Shown here: in pieces, positions 9,677 through 45,480 of the stretch
Layout: every line of letters begins with the position of its first letter
Numbering within the stretch: position 1 is the stretch's first letter
Made by a program: the position numbers and the translations under genes
Origin: Escherichia coli
GTDB lineage: Bacteria > Pseudomonadota > Gammaproteobacteria > Enterobacterales > Enterobacteriaceae
NCBI RefSeq assembly: GCF_030013595.1
Contig: NZ_CP122768.1
Length of the DNA stretch: 64,000 nt
Reading direction: 5' to 3' (one strand)
The notes under the pieces: model-generated
What the model was told of the DNA's origin: nothing
What the model saw: the letters and a program-made list of their open reading frames with translations, nothing else
Database searches by the model: none

Positions 9677-12136
9677 ATGGACACCGTGAATATTTATCGA
9701 CTCTCTTTTATATCCTGCCTGGTCATGGCGATACCTTCCGCATTGGCGGTCGAATTCAACCTGAATGTCCTCGATAAATCGATGCGAGATCGCATTGATA
9801 TTTCATTATTAAAGGAAAAAGGGGGCATTGCTCCCGGTGAATATTTTGTTAGCGTTGCGGTGAATAACAACCAAATCAGTAATGGGCAAAAAATCAACTG
9901 GCAAAAAAATGGTGACAAAACCATTCCATGCATCAATGATTCACTGGTCGATAAATTTGGTTTAAAACCAGATATCCGTCAGTCCTTGCCACAGATAGGT
10001 CGGTGTATTGATTTCAGTTCCCGACCTGAAATGCTCTTCAATTTCGATCAAGCCAATCAGCAACTGAATATTAGTATTCCGCAAGCCTGGCTGGCGTGGC
10101 ACTCAGATAACTGGACTCCCCCCTCAACATGGAAAGAAGGTGTCGCCGGCGTCCTGATGGACTACAACCTGTTTGCCAGCAGCTACCGCCCACAGGACGG
10201 CAGCAGCAGCACTAATCTGAATGCCTACGGAACAGCCGGAATTAACGCGGGAGCATGGCGTTTACGCAGTGATTACCAATTGAATCAGACCGATAGCGAT
10301 GATAACCATGAACAGTCAGGCGAAATATCACGCACCTATCTTTTTCGTCCATTACCGCAATTAGGTTCAAAATTAACCCTTGGTGAAACGGATTTCAGTT
10401 CCAATATTTTCGACGGCTTTTCTTATACCGGCGCGGCACTGGCAAGTGACGATCGGATGTTACCGTGGGAGCTACGCGGCTACGCCCCACAAATCAGCGG
10501 CATTGCACAAACCAACGCCACCGTCACCGTGAGTCACTCAGGGCGAGTTATTTACCAGAAAAAAGTCCCACCAGGTCCGTTTATCATTGATGACCTTAAT
10601 CAGTCCGTCCAGGGTACGTTGGATGTCAAAGTGACGGAAGAAGATGGTCGGGTGAACAATTTCCAGGTTTCGGCAGCATCGACGCCTTTCCTTACGCGCC
10701 AGGGGCAGGTTCGCTATAAACTTGCTGCCGGTCAGCCGCGAACATCTATGTCTCATCAAACTGAAAATGAAACCTTTTTTAGCAATGAAGTTTCCTGGGG
10801 GATGCTGTCAAATACCTCACTGTACGGCGGCCTGCTGATTTCGGGTGACGACTACCATTCTGCCGCAATGGGTATCGGGCAAAATATGCTCTGGCTTGGT
10901 GCGCTGTCTTTTGATGTCACCTGGGCCAGTAGCCATTTTGATACTCAGCAGGACGAGCGGGGCTTAAGCTACCGTTTTAATTACAGCAAACAAGTGGATG
11001 CCACCGACAGCACGATTTCGCTCGCCGCTTATCGTTTCTCCGATCGTCATTTTCACAGCTACGCCAACTATCTGGATCACAAATACAACGACAGCGATGC
11101 GCAGGACGAAAAACAGACGATCAGCTTATCCGTGGGCCAACCGATTACCCCACTGAACCTCAATCTGTACGCCAACCTGCTGCATCAAACCTGGTGGAAT
11201 GCAGACGCCTCCACGACCGCCAACATCACGGCGGGTTTTAATGTTGATATTGGTAACTGGAGAGATATCTCGATCTCGACGTCATTCAATACAACCCATT
11301 ACGAAGATAAAGATCGCGACAATCAGATTTACCTGTCGATTTCGCTCCCCTTCGGTAACGGGGGGCGGGTCGGTTATGACATGCAAAACAGTAGTCACAG
11401 CACCACGCACCGCATGTCGTGGAATGATACGTTAGATGAACGTAATAGCTGGGGCATGTCTACCGGACTGCAATCCGACCGTCCGGATAATGGAGCCCAG
11501 CTGAGCGGTAACTATCAGCACCTGAGTTCAGCGGGTGAGTGGGATATTTCTGGTACCTATGCCGCCAATGATTACAGTTCCGTCAGCAGCAGCTGGAGCG
11601 GTTCTTTCACGGCAACTCAATATGGTGCGGCGTTCCATCGCCGCAGCTCCACCAATGAACCACGCCTGATGGTCAGCACCGATGGCGTGGCAGATATTCC
11701 GGTTCAGGGCAATCTCGACTACACCAACCATTTTGGCATTGCGGTGGTGCCGTTGATTTCCAGTTACCAGCCTTCCACCGTGGCGGTGAACATGAATGAT
11801 TTACCCGACGGCGTAACAGTGGCAGATAACGTTATCAAAGAAACGTGGATTGAAGGCGCGATAGGTTACAAATCACTGGCTTCCCGTTCCGGTAAAGACG
11901 TTAACGTCATCATTCGCAACGCCAGCGGTCAGTTCCCTCCCCTCGGAGCGGATATCCGCCAGGAGGATAGCGGCATTAGCGTGGGAATGGTTGGCGAGGA
12001 AGGACACGCCTGGTTAAGCGGAGTCGCTGAAAATCAACAATTTACCGTGATCTGGGGTGATAGCCAGCGTTGCTCGATCCATCTTCCTGAACATATGGAA
12101 GACACCGCAAATCGCCTGATTTTACCTTGTCATTAA
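9677..12136 (+). CDS. ybgQ: outer-membrane fimbrial usher protein
   Basis: ORF track 9635..12136 starts at TTG inside the hairpin; ATG at 9677 (MDTVNIYRLSFISCLVMAIPSALA, signal-peptide-like) preferred; length typical of ushers; exact start uncertain. Confidence 0.85.
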   Translation: MDTVNIYRLSFISCLVMAIPSALAVEFNLNVLDKSMRDRIDISLLKEKGGIAPGEYFVSVAVNNNQISNGQKINWQKNGDKTIPCINDSLVDKFGLKPDIRQSLPQIGRCIDFSSRPEMLFNFDQANQQLNISIPQAWLAWHSDNWTPPSTWKEGVAGVLMDYNLFASSYRPQDGSSSTNLNAYGTAGINAGAWRLRSDYQLNQTDSDDNHEQSGEISRTYLFRPLPQLGSKLTLGETDFSSNIFDGFSYTGAALASDDRMLPWELRGYAPQISGIAQTNATVTVSHSGRVIYQKKVPPGPFIIDDLNQSVQGTLDVKVTEEDGRVNNFQVSAASTPFLTRQGQVRYKLAAGQPRTSMSHQTENETFFSNEVSWGMLSNTSLYGGLLISGDDYHSAAMGIGQNMLWLGALSFDVTWASSHFDTQQDERGLSYRFNYSKQVDATDSTISLAAYRFSDRHFHSYANYLDHKYNDSDAQDEKQTISLSVGQPITPLNLNLYANLLHQTWWNADASTTANITAGFNVDIGNWRDISISTSFNTTHYEDKDRDNQIYLSISLPFGNGGRVGYDMQNSSHSTTHRMSWNDTLDERNSWGMSTGLQSDRPDNGAQLSGNYQHLSSAGEWDISGTYAANDYSSVSSSWSGSFTATQYGAAFHRRSSTNEPRLMVSTDGVADIPVQGNLDYTNHFGIAVVPLISSYQPSTVAVNMNDLPDGVTVADNVIKETWIEGAIGYKSLASRSGKDVNVIIRNASGQFPPLGADIRQEDSGISVGMVGEEGHAWLSGVAENQQFTVIWGDSQRCSIHLPEHMEDTANRLILPCH

Positions 12137-22248: not shown

Positions 22249-22754
22249 AAAACTCCTGAATGGCGCAAGTTAATCACACGCGGCCAAAGTTCGAAATAAC
22301 GCTGCCCTGAAAGCCAGGCGTCAGGATAAAGCGCCATATAGTGTTTGATACGCATCAGCGGCGCAAGAAGTGGTTGCTCGCCACGGCGATAACTGTCGAT
22401 AAGCGCAGCCAGCTGCTGGCGTTCTGTGGAATCAATATGAGGGCGAAAATAACCCTGAACGTGCATCAAAACATTGGTGTGGTCACGTCGGTTGGCGGGG
22501 TGAGAAAGCAAAACAACTACGCGTTGGCGGTACTGGTTGTAATAGTCATCCAGATTTTGCCACTGGTGAATATCAGCCACGAACGGGCCAAGTTTGCGGT
22601 ATTCCGGCTGGGAATGAGCCAGAAAGACGAGTTTATAGCGGCTGTGATAATCGAGAAGCGCCCCGCGCGTTAAGCCATGTTCTTTCAGTCGATGTAACTC
22701 ATGAAGCGCGAAGATACGGATTAGAGTGCTGTCATCAAATCGTTGCTGATTCAT
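22245..22754 (-). CDS. ybgA: DUF1722-family protein, co-transcribed with phr
   Basis: ORF track 169 aa MNQQRFDDSTLIRIFALHEL...; stop overlaps phr start. Confidence 0.9.
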   Translation of the reverse strand: MNQQRFDDSTLIRIFALHELHRLKEHGLTRGALLDYHSRYKLVFLAHSQPEYRKLGPFVADIHQWQNLDDYYNQYRQRVVVLLSHPANRRDHTNVLMHVQGYFRPHIDSTERQQLAALIDSYRRGEQPLLAPLMRIKHYMALYPDAWLSGQRYFELWPRVINLRHSGVL

Positions 22755-22882
22755 TACTGCTCCTGAACGGTTTACAGGAGTAAGTGTAGACGTTGGTAAA
22801 TGATGTTTGTGAAGTTAATCCGCTAGCAGGGCAAGATTACGAAAGCGCGCTCCCCGCAAGCAACTCATCAAGGTAGTTAATC

Positions 22883-23176
22883 ATGGCTGAACACAATATT
22901 ACGCCAGAAGTCATCATTTCCAAAACACAGCGCCGCTGTACCGTGGGTTATCTGCCCAACCGCAGCGACACGCCGGTGATCAAAATCAGCGCCAAATGGC
23001 TGAGAGAAGCGGGATTTGAGATCGGCACTGGCGTTACCGTGAAGATCTCGGAAGGTTGCCTGATCCTGCTTGCGGATAACAACGAAGTACAGGAACTGCG
23101 CAGGGAACTGTATCAGGTTAAACAGGCTGTTAAGGGGATGCGTGACGGGATGTTTAGTGTGCTGAACGAGAGTTAA
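22883..23176 (+). CDS. SymE-like toxin-family protein (AbrB/SpoVT-like fold)
   Basis: 97-aa ORF; segment ISAKWLREAGFEIGTGVTVKISEGCLILLA resembles the SymE core ([28 protein letters not shown]) as I recall it; AAGGTAG upstream of ATG. Confidence 0.6.
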   Translation: MAEHNITPEVIISKTQRRCTVGYLPNRSDTPVIKISAKWLREAGFEIGTGVTVKISEGCLILLADNNEVQELRRELYQVKQAVKGMRDGMFSVLNES

Positions 23177-23243
23177 ATAATAAAAAAGCCGGGAGATTTA
23201 ATGTCTACCCGGCCCACACATTATAATGTGTAAAACATATATT

Positions 23244-23684
23244 CTATTTATTTAAGTATTTTTTAGAGATTCTTAACCACCATGCTTTACCAGAATTAAA
23301 ATTTGAAATTAATACTTTCCCTTTTTTCCTTTTTAAAACATCAAGAATTACAGCATCAGATTTTTTTAATATCCCATCTTCTTGAGGAACACCTAACTCT
23401 ATCAATATATTAATTGAGTCAAATAGATGACCTATCTTTTCATATTCTTCATACAATAAATTACTTTCATTATTCGATATCTGAATTAAGTAATTAAATG
23501 TAACCCCCAAAATATTAGGAAATTTAGAGCTATTGACACTCGATATAAACTCCTGAACAATAGCTCTGTTTTTTAATTTCCCGGCACATAATAAAGCATA
23601 AATATTTCCAGCCAAACGTTCGATATCATGCGGATATCTATATCCTTTAGCAATTATTGCCTTAATTTTCTGTTCAGGAGTCAT
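23244..23684 (-). CDS. candidate Rhs immunity protein (no recognisable family)
   Basis: 146-aa ORF starting 2 nt after the Rhs stop codon, with a GGGAGG Shine-Dalgarno embedded in the last Rhs codons; AT-rich like the Rhs toxin tip. Confidence 0.6.
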   Translation of the reverse strand: MTPEQKIKAIIAKGYRYPHDIERLAGNIYALLCAGKLKNRAIVQEFISSVNSSKFPNILGVTFNYLIQISNNESNLLYEEYEKIGHLFDSINILIELGVPQEDGILKKSDAVILDVLKRKKGKVLISNFNSGKAWWLRISKKYLNK

Positions 23685-23686
23685 TA

Positions 23687-26600
23687 TCAGTACCTCCCGT
23701 TAGGAACAGAAAATCCAGGCAAACGCCTTAGATTTTCCCACGATTCAGGGAAGTGAGTTAAGATCACTGGTGTTTTCCCTATCTGACTTGTTGCAGTAAA
23801 CAAACCTGTTTCAGGATCATAATAGCCTACTCTAGGTTTATTCGTATACCTATCTCTATAAGTAAATTTCCTGCCATTTTGTATCGTGGTTCTTGCACTA
23901 ATATCATATTCTTTTACTGAATTTGCACCGACTTGTGAGCCATGTTTTTCAAAGTGATCTCTTAGGCCCGGCCCATCAACATTTTGTCGTGCTTTATTCC
24001 ATTTTGCATTTTTAGCCGTACCACAAAATAACCCAAGCGGATCGATCCAGCTTAACGGATTTGGCACATAAGCATAGAGGTTCAGCCCACCGTTTAATCC
24101 TATCGGGTCCGTTACCATGAACCGCCCGACATCCGGATCATAGTACCTGTGCAGATTGTAATGCAGCCCCGTTTCCCTGTCGAGGTACTGTCCCTGGTAG
24201 CGCAGGTTCTGCTCCACCCCGCCGTGGTCCTTCTCCTGTATCGTGTTACCCCAGACCTGATACCCCGTCTCCCACACGATTTTCCCGTCGCTGTCCGTCA
24301 TCTCTTCCGGCGCGCCGTTCACATCCGTGTGAAAATACAGTATCCGGTTCGGGCCCTCTTTGCCCGCCTTATCCACCCGCGCCAGCGGTTCATAACTCCC
24401 CGGGTCCCTGTAGATGTACAGGCTGTCTGTTCCCTCCGGCCTGCTCTCCTGCGCCAGCCGCATTCCGTCCCATAAAAATTTTGTCCGGTTGTACGGTTTA
24501 CCGTCAGGACTGATGTGCTGTTTTTCCGTCCGCCTCCCCAGCGCATCGTACACATACCGGTACGTCCCCCGCGCTGTCGTCACTTCCACCATCCGGTGTT
24601 CCGCATCATAACGGTAACTCTGCGTGCCGCTCCGCCCCTCCTTTTCCACCGCACGGCCAAATTCGTCGTAACGGTAGTGCACACCACGGTAAGACATCAG
24701 CCGGTTGAACGGCACCACGCTGTTTTCTGCCGTGGCCCTTTCCCCCGCGCGCCGCGCCAGCAGGTTTCCCGCCGCGTCGTACTGCCAGCTCGCCAGATAC
24801 CCCTCATCCTCCGAGCGGCACGCCGTGATGCGCCCCGTGGGGTCGTAGAAGTAATCCGTTTCCCCCCGCCGGCTGTGCCGCGTCTTCAGCAGTTCATCCT
24901 CGCCACTGTAGCTGTACTGCCGGTCCGTGAACGTCTCCGGTACCCCCCCGCGCATCCCGCTGTATGTCTCCCTGCGCTTCAGCCGCCCGCCGGGGTCGTA
25001 AAGCTGCCGCGTGCTCAGTCGCCCCTGGCTTCTGAGCACTTCACGGTGCAGGGCGTCACGTGTGAACTCGCTGATGACCTCCCGGTCCAGATTTATCTGC
25101 TGGAGATGGCCGCTGCCGTAGTACAGATGACGCTGCGTTCTGCCGTCCGGAAAGGTGGTGGCTGTCCGGTTGCTGAGTTCATCGTACTGATGGGTCAGGA
25201 CGCCCTGCGCCGTCTCCTCAGTCAGCATCCGCCCCAGTCTGTCGTAACTGAAGCGGATAATCTCCGGTGCGTCTGTTTCCCCGGCATCCGACCGTCGGCG
25301 GCGGATTTCCAGTAGCTGGTCTGCCGCATCATGGACGTATTCCGTACGGCTATCGGCTGTCTCCTTTGCCGTAAGCCGGCCCGCCGCATCACGTGCCAGC
25401 CGATGGCGGATTTCACCGCCCCGGTCCCCGGTGAACACCACTTCCGTGACCGCGTTCAGCGCGTTGTAGCGGTACGTCTGGCGGCAGCCGTCCGGATTTA
25501 TCTGCTCCGCCAGACGGTCCAGCACATCATGGCGGAACCGGTAGCTTTCTCCGTTCTCGTTTGTCAGCGTGACCAGACGCCCGTAAGCATCGTACCCGAA
25601 TGCCGTCCTGCGCCCCGTCGCGTCCGTCCGGCTGCGCACCCGGCCCTGCCCGTCCCGCTGCCAGCGCGTTATCCTCCCCATCGGGCTGGTGTACTTCACC
25701 AGCCTGCCCGCCGCGTCCGACTGGTAATTCACCGTGCGGCCGTCCGCCAGTATCACCTCCGTCAGGTGGCCGCTGTCGTCATACCCGTAGCGCGTGCTGT
25801 GGCTCTGCGCGTCTGTCATCCGTATCAGCCGCGTGCGTTCGTCGTAGAACCAGGCCGTCTGCGAGCCGGAACAGTCCGTGTGCCGCATGAGCTGCCCGTC
25901 TTCGTTCCACTGAAGGTATTTATTCCCCCCGCGCGCATCGGTTATCTGCACCACCTGGCCGTGGCGGTCATACTGATACCGGGTGTTCTGCTGCAGCGGG
26001 TCGGTCACCGCAAGAAGATTGCCGCGTTCATCGTACTCACAGCACCAGCTGTTCCCCGCCGCGTCCACCTCCGTTTCCGGCTGGTGCCACACCGGGTGCC
26101 ACTGTGTCTGTGCCACCCGCCCCAGCGGGTCGTGCGTCTCCGTGATATGCCCCTGCCGGTCATACACATAGCGCCATTTGCCGCCCTGCGCATCGGTCAT
26201 TCCCAGTAACAGCCGTTCTTCGTCGCTCCAGCGGAACGTCGTCACCTGCCCGGCTTCGTCCTGGTACGCCGTCACCTGGTTCTGCGCGTCCCACTGATGA
26301 TAACGCGTGCGCCCCAGCCCGTCCGTCACGCACAGCCTGCGTGACGCCAGGCTCCACGCCAGCCGGTACTGTTCACCGCTGTCCGTGTGGTGCCCCGTCA
26401 CCCGCCACGCTGCGTCATCCGGGCCTTCATACCAGCCCCACTGGTAATAATACCCTTCGCCGCCCGGCTGGCGGTGCAGGGTCATGCAGTGGTTTTCGTC
26501 GTAAGCAAACTCGCGCAGCAGGTGTCCCGTGCTGTCGTACACGCCGTTCAGGTCGCCGGCCTCGTCATAGCGGTAACGACGCAGCAGTAAAGGAGCCGTC

Positions 26601-28339
26601 TCAGGGAAATGCTGATAAATCTGTGTCACCCGCCGGGGATGCGCCGCCAGTTCATAATGCAGACGGATGCACGGACGCTGCTGTTCACCGCTGATTTGCG
26701 TGATGCGCCCCAGCTCGTCGTAGTACAGATTCAGACAGTTGCTGTTGCGGTCGCCCAGCATTTTCAGCCGCTGGCGCTGCGGGTGATGCGGGTCGGCCTC
26801 AAACAGAAAAAACTGCCCGTCATCGCTGCTGATAAGCCAGTGCCCCTGCTCACCCCGCCTTACCGCCAGTCCTTCGCCGGGGCTGTAAAACCCGCTCCCC
26901 GGCAGCACGGCCTCCATATCCAGGCGTCGTCCCATGCCCGACACAAAGGTCATACAGTTTTCGTCAGCAGTACCCGGCGTGCGCTCGAGGCTGACTTCAT
27001 ACATCACGCTCCAGCCCTGCCCGAACATCCCTTCCGTGCGGTCGTCACGACTGCTGTACACGCGCTGCCAGTCCAGCGGAAAGTGGCCCGGCAGACTGAA
27101 ATCGAAGTCATCGTCATCCGCCAGATATTTGGCTCCGGTGGCGGCATTGACCGGATGCGGAAGGGCACTGATGGCCTTCTGCGTCATCACCCCCATCCCG
27201 ACACTGGCAGCAAAACAGGCGATTTTAGAAAGCATTTTGCCCGGGCGAAGAAACATCAGCGCCACAGTTGCCACCAGGGTTATCTGCGACCTGCCGCTTC
27301 TGATATCCCTGACCACCAGTAACGGACCGCCAATGCGGACATCCGGTGACACAAACGCCCCGTTCCCCGGCTCATTCACCACCCAGGCCTCGCAGGTGCA
27401 GCGTGCCCCGCTGCGTGCCGCCGGCTGGCTGTTGATACGCACATCCCGCGCGCCTTCCGCGATATATTCCGCTGCGGGCGGTTCATCATCGCCTTTGAAC
27501 AGATTACTGATGCTGCCAATAACCGCATTCACTCCCTGAAAGGCGGTTTCCAGCATACCGCCCGGACTCAGCAGGTTAAGGGCCGTTCCCAGAGGGTCAT
27601 CCAGAAAGGCGGCTTTTTTTTGTGCGAGAAACTGCGTCAGTGAGGAGGGATGTTTATGGCAGTCGATTTTATCGTCAGGGGTCGGGGTGGAGCCCGGGGC
27701 CGCACTGGCCACGGTGGGCTGCCATAGTTCCGACACAAAATGTGTCACGCCATCCACCATTTCAGAACGCCCTTCTTCCGTACTGAGCTGGTCATGCAGC
27801 GCCCGGGACATCAGCACAGGCCCTGTCACCGGGTTAACCGCCAGGGCTATGGCCCCCGCCATTTCCAGATATTCCCCGGCCACATCCCGGAACGTTCTGG
27901 CGTCCTCCTGACGCTGCGCTTCTTCCTGTTCCGCCTTCGCCTGTGCCTCCTGCGCCTCAATGTCCTGCCGCGATGCCGCAGTCGCCGCTGCCCGCGCGGC
28001 AGGTTTGCTGTTGATCCATGTGTCGCCAGAGCCGGTGAGGATGTAACCTTCAATCTGAGGCGGGAAAAGCCAGTTCGCCAGTTGCTCACTTTCCCTACTG
28101 ATTCGGTCATTCCAGCCCTGATACGACATAAATACCGCTGTTGCTATACCGATCGCTAAAATGGTTGAGCAGCCCAGCGTTGCCACTTCAACTCCGCCCA
28201 GCGCCGCCATGGTTCCGACAACCAGAACATCCACCAGGGCTGTGGCGGCAACCTCTACAACTGCCCCCAGCACATCTGCCATAAACGACGTATGCAGCAG
28301 GGCATCACCCTGCCTTGCCGCCCAGAATGCCTCTTCCAT
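23687..28339 (-). CDS. Rhs-family polymorphic toxin: prePAAR motif and hydrophobic segments, PAAR-like region, YD-repeat core, DPxGL motifs, variable C-terminal toxin domain
   Basis: ORF track 1550 aa; N-terminal AARQGDALLH (AARxxDxxxH) then hydrophobic stretches; many YD/RYxYD repeats; VTDPIGLNGG...PNPLSWIDPLGL followed by a ~113-aa basic tail; occupies the K-12 rhsC position but differs from K-12 RhsC at both termini. Confidence 0.92.
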   Translation of the reverse strand: MEEAFWAARQGDALLHTSFMADVLGAVVEVAATALVDVLVVGTMAALGGVEVATLGCSTILAIGIATAVFMSYQGWNDRISRESEQLANWLFPPQIEGYILTGSGDTWINSKPAARAAATAASRQDIEAQEAQAKAEQEEAQRQEDARTFRDVAGEYLEMAGAIALAVNPVTGPVLMSRALHDQLSTEEGRSEMVDGVTHFVSELWQPTVASAAPGSTPTPDDKIDCHKHPSSLTQFLAQKKAAFLDDPLGTALNLLSPGGMLETAFQGVNAVIGSISNLFKGDDEPPAAEYIAEGARDVRINSQPAARSGARCTCEAWVVNEPGNGAFVSPDVRIGGPLLVVRDIRSGRSQITLVATVALMFLRPGKMLSKIACFAASVGMGVMTQKAISALPHPVNAATGAKYLADDDDFDFSLPGHFPLDWQRVYSSRDDRTEGMFGQGWSVMYEVSLERTPGTADENCMTFVSGMGRRLDMEAVLPGSGFYSPGEGLAVRRGEQGHWLISSDDGQFFLFEADPHHPQRQRLKMLGDRNSNCLNLYYDELGRITQISGEQQRPCIRLHYELAAHPRRVTQIYQHFPETAPLLLRRYRYDEAGDLNGVYDSTGHLLREFAYDENHCMTLHRQPGGEGYYYQWGWYEGPDDAAWRVTGHHTDSGEQYRLAWSLASRRLCVTDGLGRTRYHQWDAQNQVTAYQDEAGQVTTFRWSDEERLLLGMTDAQGGKWRYVYDRQGHITETHDPLGRVAQTQWHPVWHQPETEVDAAGNSWCCEYDERGNLLAVTDPLQQNTRYQYDRHGQVVQITDARGGNKYLQWNEDGQLMRHTDCSGSQTAWFYDERTRLIRMTDAQSHSTRYGYDDSGHLTEVILADGRTVNYQSDAAGRLVKYTSPMGRITRWQRDGQGRVRSRTDATGRRTAFGYDAYGRLVTLTNENGESYRFRHDVLDRLAEQINPDGCRQTYRYNALNAVTEVVFTGDRGGEIRHRLARDAAGRLTAKETADSRTEYVHDAADQLLEIRRRRSDAGETDAPEIIRFSYDRLGRMLTEETAQGVLTHQYDELSNRTATTFPDGRTQRHLYYGSGHLQQINLDREVISEFTRDALHREVLRSQGRLSTRQLYDPGGRLKRRETYSGMRGGVPETFTDRQYSYSGEDELLKTRHSRRGETDYFYDPTGRITACRSEDEGYLASWQYDAAGNLLARRAGERATAENSVVPFNRLMSYRGVHYRYDEFGRAVEKEGRSGTQSYRYDAEHRMVEVTTARGTYRYVYDALGRRTEKQHISPDGKPYNRTKFLWDGMRLAQESRPEGTDSLYIYRDPGSYEPLARVDKAGKEGPNRILYFHTDVNGAPEEMTDSDGKIVWETGYQVWGNTIQEKDHGGVEQNLRYQGQYLDRETGLHYNLHRYYDPDVGRFMVTDPIGLNGGLNLYAYVPNPLSWIDPLGLFCGTAKNAKWNKARQNVDGPGLRDHFEKHGSQVGANSVKEYDISARTTIQNGRKFTYRDRYTNKPRVGYYDPETGLFTATSQIGKTPVILTHFPESWENLRRLPGFSVPNGRY

Positions 28340-28357
28340 GTCCCGTTCCCTGTGTGA

Positions 28358-28558
28358 TTAATTCGTCCCGGCTTCCTGCCGCATCCTGAAGCGCAGATTC
28401 TTTTTAATTTCAGCCCAGCGCGTCATATCTGCCGGGGTCAGCGGTGTGGTTCTGGCGTAGGTGAAGGCCATCATGACCCGTTCACCCGGCAATACAAATG
28501 CCACCTGACACTGGTACACCTGCTCGTTACCCCGGAGAAACTGGCTCTGTATTTGCAA
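28358..28558 (-). other. possible remnant of a gene upstream of rhs (truncated Eag/DUF1795-like chaperone?)
   Basis: 66-codon ORF initiating at TTG with an in-frame stop two codons upstream, ending 18 bp before the Rhs start; no ATG start or clear RBS; identity not verifiable by eye. Confidence 0.25.
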
Positions 28559-44282: not shown

Positions 44283-45047
44283 ATGAAATTGAATATCCGC
44301 GCGCAAACTGCACAAAACCAGCACAATAATTCTCCCATCGTTCTTGTCCATGGTCTGTTTGGTAGCCTCGACAACCTTGGCGTACTGGCTCGCGATCTGG
44401 TAAACGATCACAATATCATCCTGGTTGATATGCGTAACCACGGTCTTTCACCGAGAGATCCGGTGATGAATTACCCGGCGATGGCGCAGGATCTTGTTGA
44501 TACCCTGGATGCACTGCAGATCGACAAAGCAACATTTATCGGTCACTCCATGGGCGGTAAAGCGGTAATGGCACTTACTGCACTGGCCCCCGATCGCATC
44601 GATAAACTGGTGGCGATCGATATCGCACCGGTCGACTATCACGTACGCCGGCATGATGAGATTTTCGCGGCCATCAACGCAGTCAGTGAATCGGACGCAC
44701 AAACTCGCCAGCAAGCAGCAGCAATAATGCGCCAGCATCTTAATGAAGAAGGGGTGATTCAGTTTCTGCTGAAATCTTTTGTTGACGGGGAGTGGCGCTT
44801 TAACGTGCCGGTATTGTGGGATCAGTATCCGCATATTGTGGGTTGGGAGAAAATCCCGGCCTGGGATCACCCTGCCCTGTTTATCCCAGGCGGCAACTCT
44901 CCGTATGTTAGCGAGCAGTACCGTGATGATTTACTGGCACAATTTCCACAGGCACGGGCGCATGTGATTGCAGGCGCGGGTCACTGGGTCCATGCTGAAA
45001 AACCGGATGCGGTATTACGCGCTATCCGTCGCTATCTCAATGATTAA
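44283..45047 (+). CDS. ybfF: alpha/beta-hydrolase esterase
   Basis: ORF track 254 aa MKLNIRAQTAQNQHNNSPIVLVHGLFGS..., GHSMGG nucleophile elbow. Confidence 0.93.
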   Translation: MKLNIRAQTAQNQHNNSPIVLVHGLFGSLDNLGVLARDLVNDHNIILVDMRNHGLSPRDPVMNYPAMAQDLVDTLDALQIDKATFIGHSMGGKAVMALTALAPDRIDKLVAIDIAPVDYHVRRHDEIFAAINAVSESDAQTRQQAAAIMRQHLNEEGVIQFLLKSFVDGEWRFNVPVLWDQYPHIVGWEKIPAWDHPALFIPGGNSPYVSEQYRDDLLAQFPQARAHVIAGAGHWVHAEKPDAVLRAIRRYLND

Positions 45048-45186
45048 CGCAACTGATTAAAAACCCAGCGTCCGCGTCGCTTTCCGCGCGTGGGCGTTGG
45101 CGTGACTCATCGCGCTGATGTATTATGGCGCGCTATCCATCCGGGCAGAGGCCTGGCTGATTGTTTCCCCCGAAGTCACCAAGATC

Positions 45187-45480
45187 ATGGCCAAAGAACA
45201 AACGGACCGTACGACATTAGATCTGTTCGCGCACGAGCGTCGACCGGGACGACCGAAAACTAATCCGCTTTCGCGCGATGAACAGCTGCGTATTAATAAA
45301 CGCAACCAGCTAAAACGCGACAAAGTACGTGGCCTTAAGCGTGTCGAACTGAAGCTGAACGCGGAAGCTGTCGAGGCGCTGAACGAGCTGGCGGAATCGC
45401 GCAATATGAGCCGTAGCGAACTGATCGAAGAGATGTTAATGCAGCAACTGGCGGCGCTGCGTAGTCAGGGCATCGTTTAA
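45187..45480 (+). CDS. ybfE: small conserved protein YbfE
   Basis: Within ORF 45118..45480; start at [24 protein letters not shown] (ATG 45187), 97 aa. Confidence 0.8.

What the first reader, a model, noticed from the sequence alone, without database searches (positions are those of the whole stretch)
22883..23176. SymE-like toxin gene next to the Rhs immunity gene
The 97-aa ORF convergent with the immunity gene contains ISAKWLREAGFEIGTGVTVKISEGCLILLA, closely resembling the core of E. coli SymE (an SOS-induced type I toxin of the AbrB/SpoVT fold, repressed by antisense SymR RNA), which in K-12 maps elsewhere. I could not find a convincing LexA box upstream. Its position inside the Rhs accessory island suggests a second small toxin module, possibly antisense-regulated.
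Basis: partly seen in the sequence, partly recalled or inferred. Interest (0 to 1): 0.5.

Follow-up and report, generated by a model that had tools for sequence, protein, structure and literature searches.

The report
SymE-family gene flanking an Rhs toxin cassette
The 97-codon gene is a genuine, already-annotated relative of E. coli SymE, and comparison with other genomes suggests it lies beside the Rhs immunity gene because SymE genes are the conserved end-piece of the units, some on small plasmid-like elements, that appear to swap Rhs toxin tips.

Summary
The ORF at 22883-23176 (+) is real, intact and a SymE-family member: Pfam PF08845 E=2.4e-14, 44% identical to K-12 SymE. RefSeq already names the identical protein.

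It is not the K-12 SymE orthologue. It scores 46 bits against a cut-off of 132, has no LexA box and lies at a different locus.

Codons 5-14 carry, on the opposite strand, a -35/-10 pair in the exact register of the K-12 SymR promoter. This pair is conserved in 15 of 15 related copies. Relatives encode a two-hairpin SymR homologue with strong covariation. The window keeps only a truncated version, with the second hairpin deleted.

The position is not accidental. In 34 of 41 informative loci from other Enterobacterales, a symE-like sequence lies convergent, about 0.8 kb past an Rhs core end. Orphan arrays carry one symE copy or fragment per cassette, and two thirds are degraded.

In some E. coli strains, and in two small circular "plasmid" records, symE is the end gene of an HTH-symE / primase / XerC-like backbone. 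That backbone carries a tip-immunity cassette behind a roughly 27-codon Rhs core remnant. This resembles the circular intermediate hypothesised for Rhs C-terminal displacement.

The window holds a solo remnant. Gene identity is known; the episome link is inferred and may be new.

The parts
22883..23176 (+). symE-like CDS, 97 aa: N-terminal tail, AbrB/MazE-like core (about residues 17-64), C-terminal helix
   Evidence: ORF. Pfam PF08845 E=2.4e-14. [quoted passage not shown] GC is 51%, against 28% for the adjacent immunity ORF.
22870..22876 (+). Shine-Dalgarno-like AAGGTAG, 6 nt before the ATG
   Evidence: Read from the sequence. It lies in the block conserved at nucleotide level from about -14 to +60 across genera.
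22896..22923 (-). Predicted antisense (SymR-type) promoter inside codons 5-14: -35 TTGGAA (22923-22918), 16-nt spacer, -10 TAATAT (22901-22896); predicted start near 22888
   Evidence: Same register as the K-12 SymR -10 TAGAAT, 13 nt before the complement of the ATG. Kept in 15 of 15 Rhs- or episome-linked copies, with the -10 varying as TAATAT, TAGAAT or TACAAT while the encoded amino acids change. Synonymous divergence is 0.15 in codons 1-20 against 0.50 elsewhere. The generic promoter scan missed it because it matches 8 of 12 positions and the tool needs 9.
22836..22888 (-). Truncated SymR-like antisense RNA gene: hairpin 1 (anti-SD/anti-AUG) retained with 3 non-canonical pairs, interior of hairpin 2 deleted
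   Evidence: A covariance model built from 8 homologues including K-12 SymR scores 25.5 bits here against 74-89 bits for full copies; the alignment shows 28 model positions missing. The fold is not unusually stable (z=+0.6 to +1.0). No Rfam symR hit.
22826..22860 (.). symE 5' UTR / SymR 3' segment. The same 35 nt survive as a relic next to ISAs1/H-repeat elements in K-12 (ybfD-ybgA junction), strain AR_0077 and the S. flexneri circular record, with the IS inserted after ...CCCCGCAAG
   Evidence: blastn and alignment.
23182..23213 (-). Intrinsic terminator of the Rhs-immunity transcript (stem GCCGGG...CCCGGC, then a T-run on the minus strand). The conserved symE unit ends inside it, at about 23202
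   Evidence: Read from the sequence. Homology with other symE copies stops at 23194-23213.
23244..23684 (-). 146-aa presumed immunity gene of the Rhs tip (28% GC)
   Evidence: Position immediately after the Rhs gene. No family hit. It travels with the tip and the 3' part of symE to the pptA-side Rhs locus (probably rhsE, by my recollection of the K-12 map) in strain PapRG-06-5.
23690..24028 (-). 113-aa variable C-terminal tip (toxin) after the DPLGL core end at residue 1433-1437
   Evidence: No Pfam hit. Homology with other Rhs loci resumes at 24029.
24029..28339 (-). Rhs core (62% GC)

Best explanation
The ORF encodes an intact, selectively maintained SymE-family protein. By homology to K-12 SymE it is a small AbrB/MazE-fold DNA-binding protein that is harmful when overproduced (inferred). 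It follows the symE/symR design: an antisense promoter embedded in codons 5-14 should fire an RNA complementary to the start codon and Shine-Dalgarno sequence and block translation (inferred from comparative evidence). It has no SOS (LexA) control, and here the antisense RNA gene has lost its second hairpin. It lies beside the Rhs immunity gene because symE, with SymR and in complete versions an upstream HTH gene, is the conserved backbone end that flanks every Rhs tip-immunity cassette in Enterobacterales. In complete form the backbone is HTH-symE / primase-helicase / XerC-like recombinase / about 27 codons of Rhs core end. It occurs as tandem integrated units in Rhs loci and as two small circular records. 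Such an element could recombine with the end of a chromosomal Rhs core, fuse its own tip in frame, and push the old tip downstream as an orphan (inferred). The window carries the oldest, ybgA-proximal unit of the locus I take to be rhsC, stripped to tip-immunity-symE. Its likely present roles are a residual addiction or stabilising module and a downstream homology arm for cassette exchange. Both roles are inferred, not shown.
For: Identity.
Purifying selection: dN/dS 0.02-0.07 against the closest copies and 0.2-0.5 across the family.
Antisense promoter: conserved in 15 of 15 copies in the K-12 SymR register.
SymR homologues in relatives: two hairpins with z -4.3 to -6.5; K-12 SymR aligns along its full length; 28 pairs, 12 with compensatory changes, 95% of cells paired, 0 of 500 shuffles reaching the observed value, slid controls 27-58% paired.
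Cassette flank: 34 of 41 informative loci have a convergent Rhs core end 566-1283 nt (median 782) downstream of symE. Orphan arrays alternate symE copies or fragments with core remnants (L002; L026).
Backbone: a 5884-bp unit is duplicated at 98.9% in strain D6. Its ends lie at the core/tip junction and 21 nt past the symE stop. The same layout occurs in strain 200164. About 50 of 5426 complete E. coli genomes carry the full backbone.
Circular records: S. flexneri NZ_CP055112.1 (8758 bp, SymE 96% identical to the window's) and Lonsdalea populi NZ_CP072857.1 (11289 bp). Both show xerC-primase-HTH-symE, an immunity gene, a tip and a 25-34-codon core remnant beginning at DPIG.
In AR_0077 the window's own cassette is a displaced orphan that keeps an 83-nt core remnant.
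Composition: symE is 51% GC and the cassette 28-40%.
Against: Nothing here shows expression, toxicity, antisense repression, excision or integration.
The window lacks the HTH, primase and recombinase genes, has no recognisable sense promoter, and has a crippled SymR, so this copy may be silent.
Two thirds of related copies are degraded (53 of 75), which fits decay as well as function.
The two 'plasmid' records could be assembly artefacts of tandem chromosomal arrays, or recombination-excised circles rather than replicons.
Site-specific and homologous integration are not distinguished.
The 44 loci were retrieved with two peptide patterns from this subfamily, so the 83% figure describes this clade, not all SymE proteins. 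A sister 'MATT...' clade is not Rhs-linked.
The alignment used for dN/dS was chosen for intact ORFs.
Confidence: 0.6

Rival explanations
1. It is an ordinary, free-standing symE/symR type I toxin-antitoxin paralogue that works like the K-12 system (stress-induced toxin, antisense antitoxin) and lies next to the Rhs cassette only because islands accumulate such modules.
For: Family membership. The conserved SymR-type promoter. Kawano et al. 2007 describe SymE genes as proliferating selfish modules that co-locate with mobile elements.
Against: There is no LexA box and the NCBIfam equivalog cut-off is missed. The SymR-like gene is truncated. The adjacency is too regular for co-location by chance: 34 of 41 loci at a fixed distance and orientation, and one copy per orphan cassette.
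Confidence: 0.12
2. It is a functionless scar: a leftover of a past episome integration or IS-mediated deletion, whose ORF is intact only through recent origin or gene conversion from active copies.
For: 53 of 75 related copies are truncated or carry stops. The HTH gene and its promoter are lost and SymR is truncated. No sense promoter was found. ISAs1/H-repeat elements repeatedly cut the 5' UTR.
Against: dN/dS is 0.07 between the window copy and the ybgA-adjacent copy of Escherichia sp. E1V33 at dS 0.19. The truncated-SymR, ybgA-adjacent form is shared by E. coli, S. flexneri and Escherichia sp., with the ORF intact in each. This implies long retention.
Confidence: 0.2
3. It is a regulator or insulator of the Rhs locus. 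Either the AbrB-fold protein controls transcription of Rhs, immunity or the episome genes, or convergent symE and antisense transcription blocks read-through between cassettes and into ybgA-phrB.
For: AbrB/MazE-fold proteins are typically DNA-binding regulators (established knowledge). The gene is convergent, with a unidirectional terminator between it and the immunity gene. In Salmonella, the antisense RNA IsrA and its overlapping gene show inverse expression.
Against: K-12 SymE binds DNA without sequence specificity. No operator-like repeats were examined here. Many orphan junctions carry only 3' fragments of symE that cannot encode a regulator.
Confidence: 0.08

Closest known systems
E. coli K-12 symE/symR (type I toxin-antitoxin; SymE now called a nucleoid-associated protein)
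   Same: Same Pfam family, with a shared core motif and a C-terminal helix. The antisense promoter lies inside the first codons in the identical register. Relatives of the window gene encode a two-hairpin RNA of about 75 nt that aligns with SymR and covaries.
   Different: 44% identity and below the equivalog cut-off. No LexA box. Not next to hsd/mcr. In the window the SymR homologue lacks hairpin 2 and is not found by Rfam RF01809. Complete versions add an upstream HTH gene.
SymE gene neighbourhoods catalogued by Kawano, Aravind and Storz 2007 (cHTH-SymE, Prim-Hel, haemagglutinin/RHS)
   Same: Their Fig. 7A legend lists SymE next to a Cro/cI-type HTH gene, a primase-helicase gene and RHS/haemagglutinin genes. 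These are the same components seen here.
   Different: In the legend and text retrieved here these are listed as separate examples supporting a toxin role (the figure itself was not available). I found no statement linking them into one unit, describing a per-cassette arrangement, mentioning a recombinase or connecting them to Rhs tip exchange.
Rhs C-terminal displacement model (Jackson et al. 2009)
   Same: They propose an episomal circle carrying a core fragment, a tip and intervening genes that recombines with the chromosomal core and shunts the old tip downstream. The integrated arrays and circular records seen here have exactly that topology.
   Different: Their circle was hypothetical. 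[quoted passage not shown] Here the candidate carries a primase-helicase, an XerC-like recombinase, HTH-symE/SymR and a fixed core remnant of about 27 codons.
IsrA / STM0294.1n (Salmonella) and Ssr1 (Shigella flexneri) 'island sRNAs'
   Same: Both Rfam models hit the strand antisense to this ORF. The reverse complement of the isrA consensus encodes WQEEAGFETGRSVTVK, the SymE core motif. IsrA is reported as cis-antisense to, and inversely expressed with, its overlapping gene. Ssr1 lies next to an Rhs-family gene.
   Different: Both hits are below the gathering scores (31.8 against 51; 271 against 820, with 356 model positions absent). They reflect conservation of the coding sequence. They overlap the middle and 3' part of the ORF, not its 5' end, and are not evidence that such RNAs are made here.
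symE inside a CDI (cdiBAI) cluster with orphan modules, Proteus mirabilis ICEPm2
   Same: A 297-bp SymE-family gene lies convergent between the main cdiA-cdiI pair and the orphan cdiA-CT/cdiI pairs. This is the same position relative to polymorphic-toxin cassettes.
   Different: A different delivery system (CdiA rather than Rhs). The authors treat it as unrelated to the CDI system.

Membership tests
SymE family (Pfam PF08845 SymE_toxin) | Significant match to the family HMM | tested here: met
   i-Evalue 2.4e-14, 53.6 bits, residues 16-62 on model positions 1-52 of 54. All listed close homologues with a precomputed annotation carry PF08845.
SymE family (Pfam PF08845 SymE_toxin) | AbrB/MazE-type swapped-hairpin fold | tested here: inconclusive
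   The AlphaFold2 monomer model has mean pLDDT 50. Its secondary-structure order, strand-helix-strand-strand plus a C-terminal helix, is compatible, but the model is too poor for a fold search. The fold needs a dimer.
K-12 SymE orthologue (NCBIfam NF010128 equivalog) | Score at or above the curated cut-off | tested here: not met
   46.1 bits against a cut-off of 132.
K-12 SymE orthologue (NCBIfam NF010128 equivalog) | LexA box in the promoter (SOS induction) | tested here: not met
   Best PWM score in 22650-22900 is -2.9 bits. Known boxes score 16.7 bits or more, and the K-12 symE box is visible. The site upstream of the ORF I take to be ybfE, at 45051, scores 14.9 bits.
K-12 SymE orthologue (NCBIfam NF010128 equivalog) | Location between mcrB and hsdS | tested here: not met
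   The window gene lies between ybgA and an Rhs cassette. K-12 symE lies between mcrB and hsdS.
symE/symR-type type I toxin-antitoxin | Cis-antisense RNA gene whose promoter lies inside the 5' end of the toxin ORF | tested here: met
   TTGGAA-16 nt-TAATAT at 22923-22896 (minus strand), ending 13 nt before the complement of the ATG, as in K-12. Conserved in 15 of 15 related copies despite amino-acid changes. This is comparative evidence only; no transcript data.
symE/symR-type type I toxin-antitoxin | Structured SymR RNA (two hairpins, about 77 nt) | tested here: not met
   The window scores 25.5 bits on the family model, with 28 positions of hairpin 2 missing. Fold z is +0.6 to +1.0. No Rfam RF01809 hit at E<=10; the K-12 positive control scores 95 bits. 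The feature is met in relatives.
symE/symR-type type I toxin-antitoxin | Protein toxic when expressed; antisense RNA represses it | not testable with these tools
   Needs expression experiments.
Rhs tip-immunity cassette flank | Convergent orientation about 0.6-1.3 kb downstream of an Rhs core end (DPxGL) | tested here: met
   In the window the distance is 852 nt (23176 to 24029). In other genomes, 34 of 41 loci show this, with a median of 782 nt.
HTH-symE / primase / XerC-like backbone (integrated unit or small circular record) | Upstream HTH gene, primase-helicase, tyrosine recombinase and a short Rhs core remnant | tested here: not met
   tblastn of the D6 backbone proteins finds nothing in the 64-kb window. 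The window holds only the symE end, which is 94-95% identical in DNA to backbone-borne copies over 22848-23202.

The most novel reading that the evidence does not exclude
SymE/SymR (plus HTH) is the maintenance module of a previously undescribed family of small primase-helicase / XerC-like-recombinase episomes. These carry promoterless Rhs toxin tips and immunity genes behind a core stub of about 27 codons. They integrate at the end of chromosomal Rhs genes, which would make them the long-hypothesised circular intermediate of Rhs C-terminal displacement. On this reading, the symE genes and fragments scattered through Rhs orphan arrays of Enterobacterales, including this one and the 35-nt relic in K-12, are scars of serial integrations.
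Probability: 0.4. Interest if true: 0.75.

Novelty: new member of a known kind. Interest (0 to 1): 0.42.

Why it matters
The gene alone is an annotated SymE-family member, so the basic call adds little. Its context matters more.

How Rhs toxin tips are acquired and displaced has been open since 2009. The published model needs a circular intermediate that was never identified, and it explicitly lacked a recombinase.

symE turns out to be a dependable marker of cassette boundaries. Following it leads to concrete candidate vehicles: integrated tandem units in about 50 complete E. coli genomes and two small circular records. These make the model directly testable.

The analysis also extends SymR. 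An antisense RNA known from one K-12 locus becomes a covarying RNA family, and two published 'island sRNAs' (IsrA, Ssr1) are seen to overlap SymE-family ORFs.

Finally, K-12 SymE is now viewed as a DNA-binding protein, so annotating such genes as 'endoribonuclease toxins' is unsafe.

Tried and rejected
- Generic sigma-70 and terminator scan of 22600-23400. It found no sense promoter. It missed both the antisense promoter (8 of 12 matches) and the bulged Rhs-operon terminator, which were read by hand.
- LexA search: negative.
- Rfam. The Ssr1 and isrA hits lie antisense to the ORF and looked like direct evidence of an antisense RNA. They are below gathering scores and are explained by conservation of the SymE coding sequence. 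The experimentally sized Ssr1 (about 150 nt) may fall in the 356 model positions absent here. I therefore treat them as context, not proof.
- Folding the window's putative antisense RNA: not unusually stable. This led to the finding that hairpin 2 is deleted.
- AlphaFold2 monomer model: pLDDT 50, so no fold search was run.
- Pfam and NCBIfam on the tip and immunity ORFs: no hits.
- First ORF-extension script: it mis-handled stop codons and was replaced by HSP-based classification.
- 'Spread' listing, meant to find an empty-site strain for the D6 array: swamped by ybgA matches and not pursued.
- My first reading, that the island boundary lies 23-35 nt upstream of the ATG, was revised. The 35 nt at 22826-22860 belong to the symE 5' UTR/SymR region and are what K-12 retains beside ybfD.
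- The idea that the ultra-conserved 5' block is a recombinase site rather than a promoter or RNA. I considered it less likely because the opposite-strand RNA shows compensatory pairing in relatives. It is not excluded.
- Literature searches for an Rhs-linked primase/recombinase/SymE episome found none in the held library. That library is incomplete.

Full report
OBSERVATION

The window has an ATG-started ORF at 22883..23176 (+) of 97 aa containing the quoted peptide. It is convergent with a 146-aa ORF (23244..23684, -). That ORF directly follows a 1550-aa Rhs gene (23687..28339, -).

Flanking genes and an almost identical RefSeq record show that this is an E. coli Rhs locus lying between ybfA/kdp and ybgA-phrB; from the K-12 map I take it to be rhsC. 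The order is kdp - ybfA - truncated DcrB-like gene - Rhs - immunity - symE-like - ybgA-phrB.

FAMILY MEMBERSHIP

- Pfam gives SymE_toxin PF08845 at 2.4e-14.
- BLASTP to K-12 SymE gives 44% identity over 68 aa.
- An alignment with 10 homologues and K-12 SymE shows an invariant VGY...WL..A.F..G..V.VK core and a shared C-terminal helix region.
[quoted passage not shown] A database search returns 245 relatives, mostly from Escherichia, Shigella, Salmonella, Citrobacter and Erwinia.
- It is not the SymE orthologue: 46 bits against a cut-off of 132 on the NCBIfam equivalog, and a different locus.
- An AlphaFold2 monomer model was too poor to use, with pLDDT 50.
- Intact family members are under purifying selection. 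dN/dS is 0.02-0.07 between the window allele and its closest relatives, and 0.2-0.5 across the family.

REGULATION

There is no LexA box. A PWM built from 14 boxes recalled from memory scores at most -2.9 bits upstream. Its best window hit, 14.9 bits at 45051, sits in front of the ORF at 45118..45480, which I take from memory to be the LexA-regulated gene ybfE.

No sense-strand sigma-70 promoter is evident in the 128-bp ybgA-symE spacer.

On the opposite strand, codons 5-14 contain TTGGAA-16 nt-TAATAT (22923-22896). It ends 13 nt before the complement of the ATG. This is the same register as the K-12 SymR -10 element TAGAAT.

All 15 Rhs- or episome-linked copies examined, from about eight genera, keep this pair. 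The -10 appears as TAATAT, TAGAAT or TACAAT while the encoded peptides differ (DIT, DST, DCI, HSK, HST). Synonymous divergence in codons 1-20 is 0.15, against 0.50 in the rest of the gene.

In copies that retain an upstream HTH gene, the RNA predicted from this promoter folds into two hairpins with z-scores of -4.3 to -6.5. K-12 SymR aligns with them end to end. The consensus structure has 28 pairs, 12 of them with compensatory double changes. 95% of cells are paired, 0 of 500 shuffles reach the observed values, and slid controls give 27-58% paired. A SymR RNA family therefore accompanies this SymE clade.

The window's version is degenerate. A covariance model built from those sequences scores 25.5 bits at 22836-22888 (-), against 74-89 bits for full copies. 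The alignment shows 28 positions of hairpin 2 missing and three mismatched pairs in hairpin 1. The predicted fold is not unusually stable. Rfam's symR model finds K-12 at 95 bits but finds nothing here.

The same truncated form is shared by the other ybgA-adjacent copies, in E. coli AR_0077 and D6, S. flexneri and Escherichia sp. E1V33. It is therefore old, yet the ORF has stayed intact.

The Rfam hits to Ssr1 and isrA on the antisense strand are below threshold and reflect conservation of the coding sequence. The reverse complement of the isrA consensus encodes the SymE core motif. They do show that two published island sRNAs map opposite SymE-family ORFs in Rhs regions.

WHY THE GENE IS THERE

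K-12 lacks it and has the H-repeat gene ybfD next to ybgA. K-12 still keeps 35 nt of the symE 5' UTR (window 22826-22860) at the ybfD-ybgA junction. The same 35 nt abut ISAs1-family elements in AR_0077 and in a S. flexneri circular record, with the IS inserted after ...CCCCGCAAG. A ybgA-proximal symE is therefore probably ancestral at this locus and was lost from K-12.

Across 44 loci fetched from one-genome-per-species contigs, 34 of 41 informative loci have a convergent Rhs core end 566-1283 nt (median 782) beyond the symE-like match. That is one tip-immunity cassette away. The window's distance is 852 nt. The seven exceptions belong to a distinct clade with N-termini beginning MATT. From ORF translations that look like tRNA sequence, these appear to sit next to tRNA genes; this was not checked with a tRNA finder. 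That clade lacks the antisense promoter.

Orphan arrays carry one symE copy or fragment per cassette. AR_0077 has three. An Enterobacteriaceae metagenome-assembled genome (L026) has eight, alternating with core remnants. Of 75 symE-like places, 53 are truncated or interrupted.

The window's tip-immunity pair, with the 3' two thirds of symE, also occurs at 97.7% identity at another Rhs locus, next to pptA, in strain PapRG-06-5; I take this to be rhsE. In AR_0077 the same cassette is a displaced orphan that keeps an 83-nt core stub. symE has 51% GC, unlike the AT-rich cassette at 28-40%. It behaves as backbone, not as cargo.

THE BACKBONE

In E. coli D6 the locus reads as follows:
Rhs - immunity - orphan Rhs - immunity - [symE, HTH, primase, xerC, hyp, core stub] - tip - immunity - [the same unit again] - tip - immunity - symE - ybgA.

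The 5884-bp bracketed unit is duplicated at 98.9%. One end lies exactly at the core/tip junction and the other 21 nt past the symE stop. Strain 200164 shows the same pattern with different tips.

About 50 of 5426 complete E. coli genomes hold the whole unit, and about 180-224 hold this symE subfamily.

PHROGs profile searches support a DnaG-type primase with a large C-terminal part, a tyrosine integrase and a Cro/cI-type HTH protein.

Searching plasmids with the primase found two small circular records:
- S. flexneri NZ_CP055112.1, 8758 bp. Its SymE is 96% identical to the window's.
- Lonsdalea populi NZ_CP072857.1, 11289 bp.

Each carries xerC - primase - HTH - symE, then a convergent immunity gene, a tip and a 25-34-codon Rhs core stub starting at DPIG. 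A related primase-xerC-HTH module, with ParDE instead of SymE, sits on a Salmonella IncF plasmid.

MECHANISM

Shown:
- family membership and purifying selection;
- a conserved antisense promoter, and a covarying SymR RNA in relatives;
- the regular cassette-flank position;
- the existence of the backbone in integrated tandem form and in circular records.

Inferred:
- the protein binds DNA and is harmful in excess, as reported for K-12 SymE;
- the antisense RNA blocks its translation;
- the backbone is an episome that recombines with the last 27 or so codons of a chromosomal Rhs core, installs its own tip in frame and demotes the old one;
- later deletions and ISAs1 insertions strip the backbone to symE fragments;
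- symE/SymR (with HTH) stabilises the element, and symE also serves as a downstream homology arm.

For the window copy, the lost HTH gene, the missing sense promoter and the truncated SymR make low or no expression plausible. Selection on the ORF argues against a pure relic.

KNOWN AND NEW

Kawano et al. 2007 listed cHTH, Prim-Hel and RHS/haemagglutinin neighbourhoods for SymE genes. Several genome papers mention symE near T6SS, Rhs or CDI genes in passing.

Jackson et al. [quoted passage not shown] Steele et al. 2017 noted Rhs-associated integrases in bee-gut bacteria.

I found no paper that joins these into one element or describes SymR homologues beyond K-12. The searchable library is incomplete.

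CAVEATS

- There are no expression or functional data.
- The plasmid records may be assembly artefacts of tandem arrays.
- The LexA boxes and the first K-12 SymE sequence were recalled from memory; the SymE sequence was later confirmed from the K-12 record.
- The names rhsC, rhsE and ybfE, and the K-12 gene order behind them, also rest on my recollection rather than on a tool result.
- Locus sampling was restricted to this SymE clade.
- E-values from the home-built covariance model are rough.

Noticed in passing
window 22826-22860; L003 (K-12) about 11893-11930; L002 10334-10367; L055 3222-3256: ISAs1/H-repeat elements (ybfD in K-12, ISEc1 in the S. flexneri circle, ISAs1 in AR_0077) are all inserted at the same point, after ...CCCCGCAAG in the symE 5' UTR. 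This suggests a preferred insertion site. It may explain why classical Rhs elements end in an H-repeat, and why K-12 keeps a 35-nt symE/SymR relic beside ybgA.
   Followed up: partly
window 22761-22781 (minus strand, just upstream of the ybgA start at 22754): Perfect 6-bp inverted repeat CTCCTG-N9-CAGGAG whose 3' arm is the ybgA Shine-Dalgarno sequence. It could sequester the ribosome-binding site of the ybgA-phrB operon. It is conserved in K-12. It resembles a LexA box in form (CTG-N9-CAG) but has the wrong spacing and scores -7 bits.
   Followed up: no
window 23690-24028 (tip) and 23244-23684 (immunity): The 113-aa Rhs tip and the 146-aa downstream ORF have no Pfam or NCBIfam match, so they may be an uncharacterised toxin/immunity pair. 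The same pair occurs at 97.7% identity at another Rhs locus, next to pptA with vgrG and a DcrB-like gene upstream, in strain PapRG-06-5, and as a displaced orphan in AR_0077.
   Followed up: partly
window 22913-23221 and 22928-23046 (minus strand): The Rfam models for the published sRNAs Ssr1 (Shigella) and IsrA (Salmonella) align to the antisense strand of this SymE-family ORF. The isrA consensus is the reverse complement of the SymE core motif. Both sRNAs therefore overlap unrecognised SymE-family genes in Rhs regions, and their reported phenotypes may need re-reading in that light.
   Followed up: partly
window 45051-45070: Best LexA-box-like site in the window (AACTGATTAAAAACCCAGCG, 14.9 bits). 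It lies between the 254-aa ORF ending at 45047 and the 120-aa ORF starting at 45118. From memory of the K-12 gene order I take these to be ybfF and the LexA-regulated gene ybfE. It was used as a positive control.
   Followed up: yes
window about 28355-28558 (minus strand, upstream of the Rhs gene): RefSeq annotates a truncated DcrB-related gene (missing its N-terminus) directly upstream of Rhs in the near-identical record. No vgrG is annotated between it and ybfA, unlike the pptA-side Rhs locus of PapRG-06-5, which has vgrG and a full DcrB-like gene. This Rhs may lack its own delivery partners.
   Followed up: no
L057 (Salmonella IncF plasmid CP074295.1, record 94033-99363): A related HTH / toprim-primase / XerC module carries ParD-ParE instead of SymE. 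This suggests a wider family of small integrative modules that swap their addiction systems.
   Followed up: no
L013, L015, L017, L023, L025, L038, L042 (around position 10000 in each): A sister SymE clade with N-termini beginning MATT(L/P)TQT is not Rhs-linked and lacks the internal antisense promoter. ORF translations downstream look like tRNA sequence, so it may lie next to tRNA genes; this was not checked with a tRNA finder. In L013 a small ribbon-helix-helix-like ORF lies just upstream. It may use a protein partner rather than an RNA partner.
   Followed up: no
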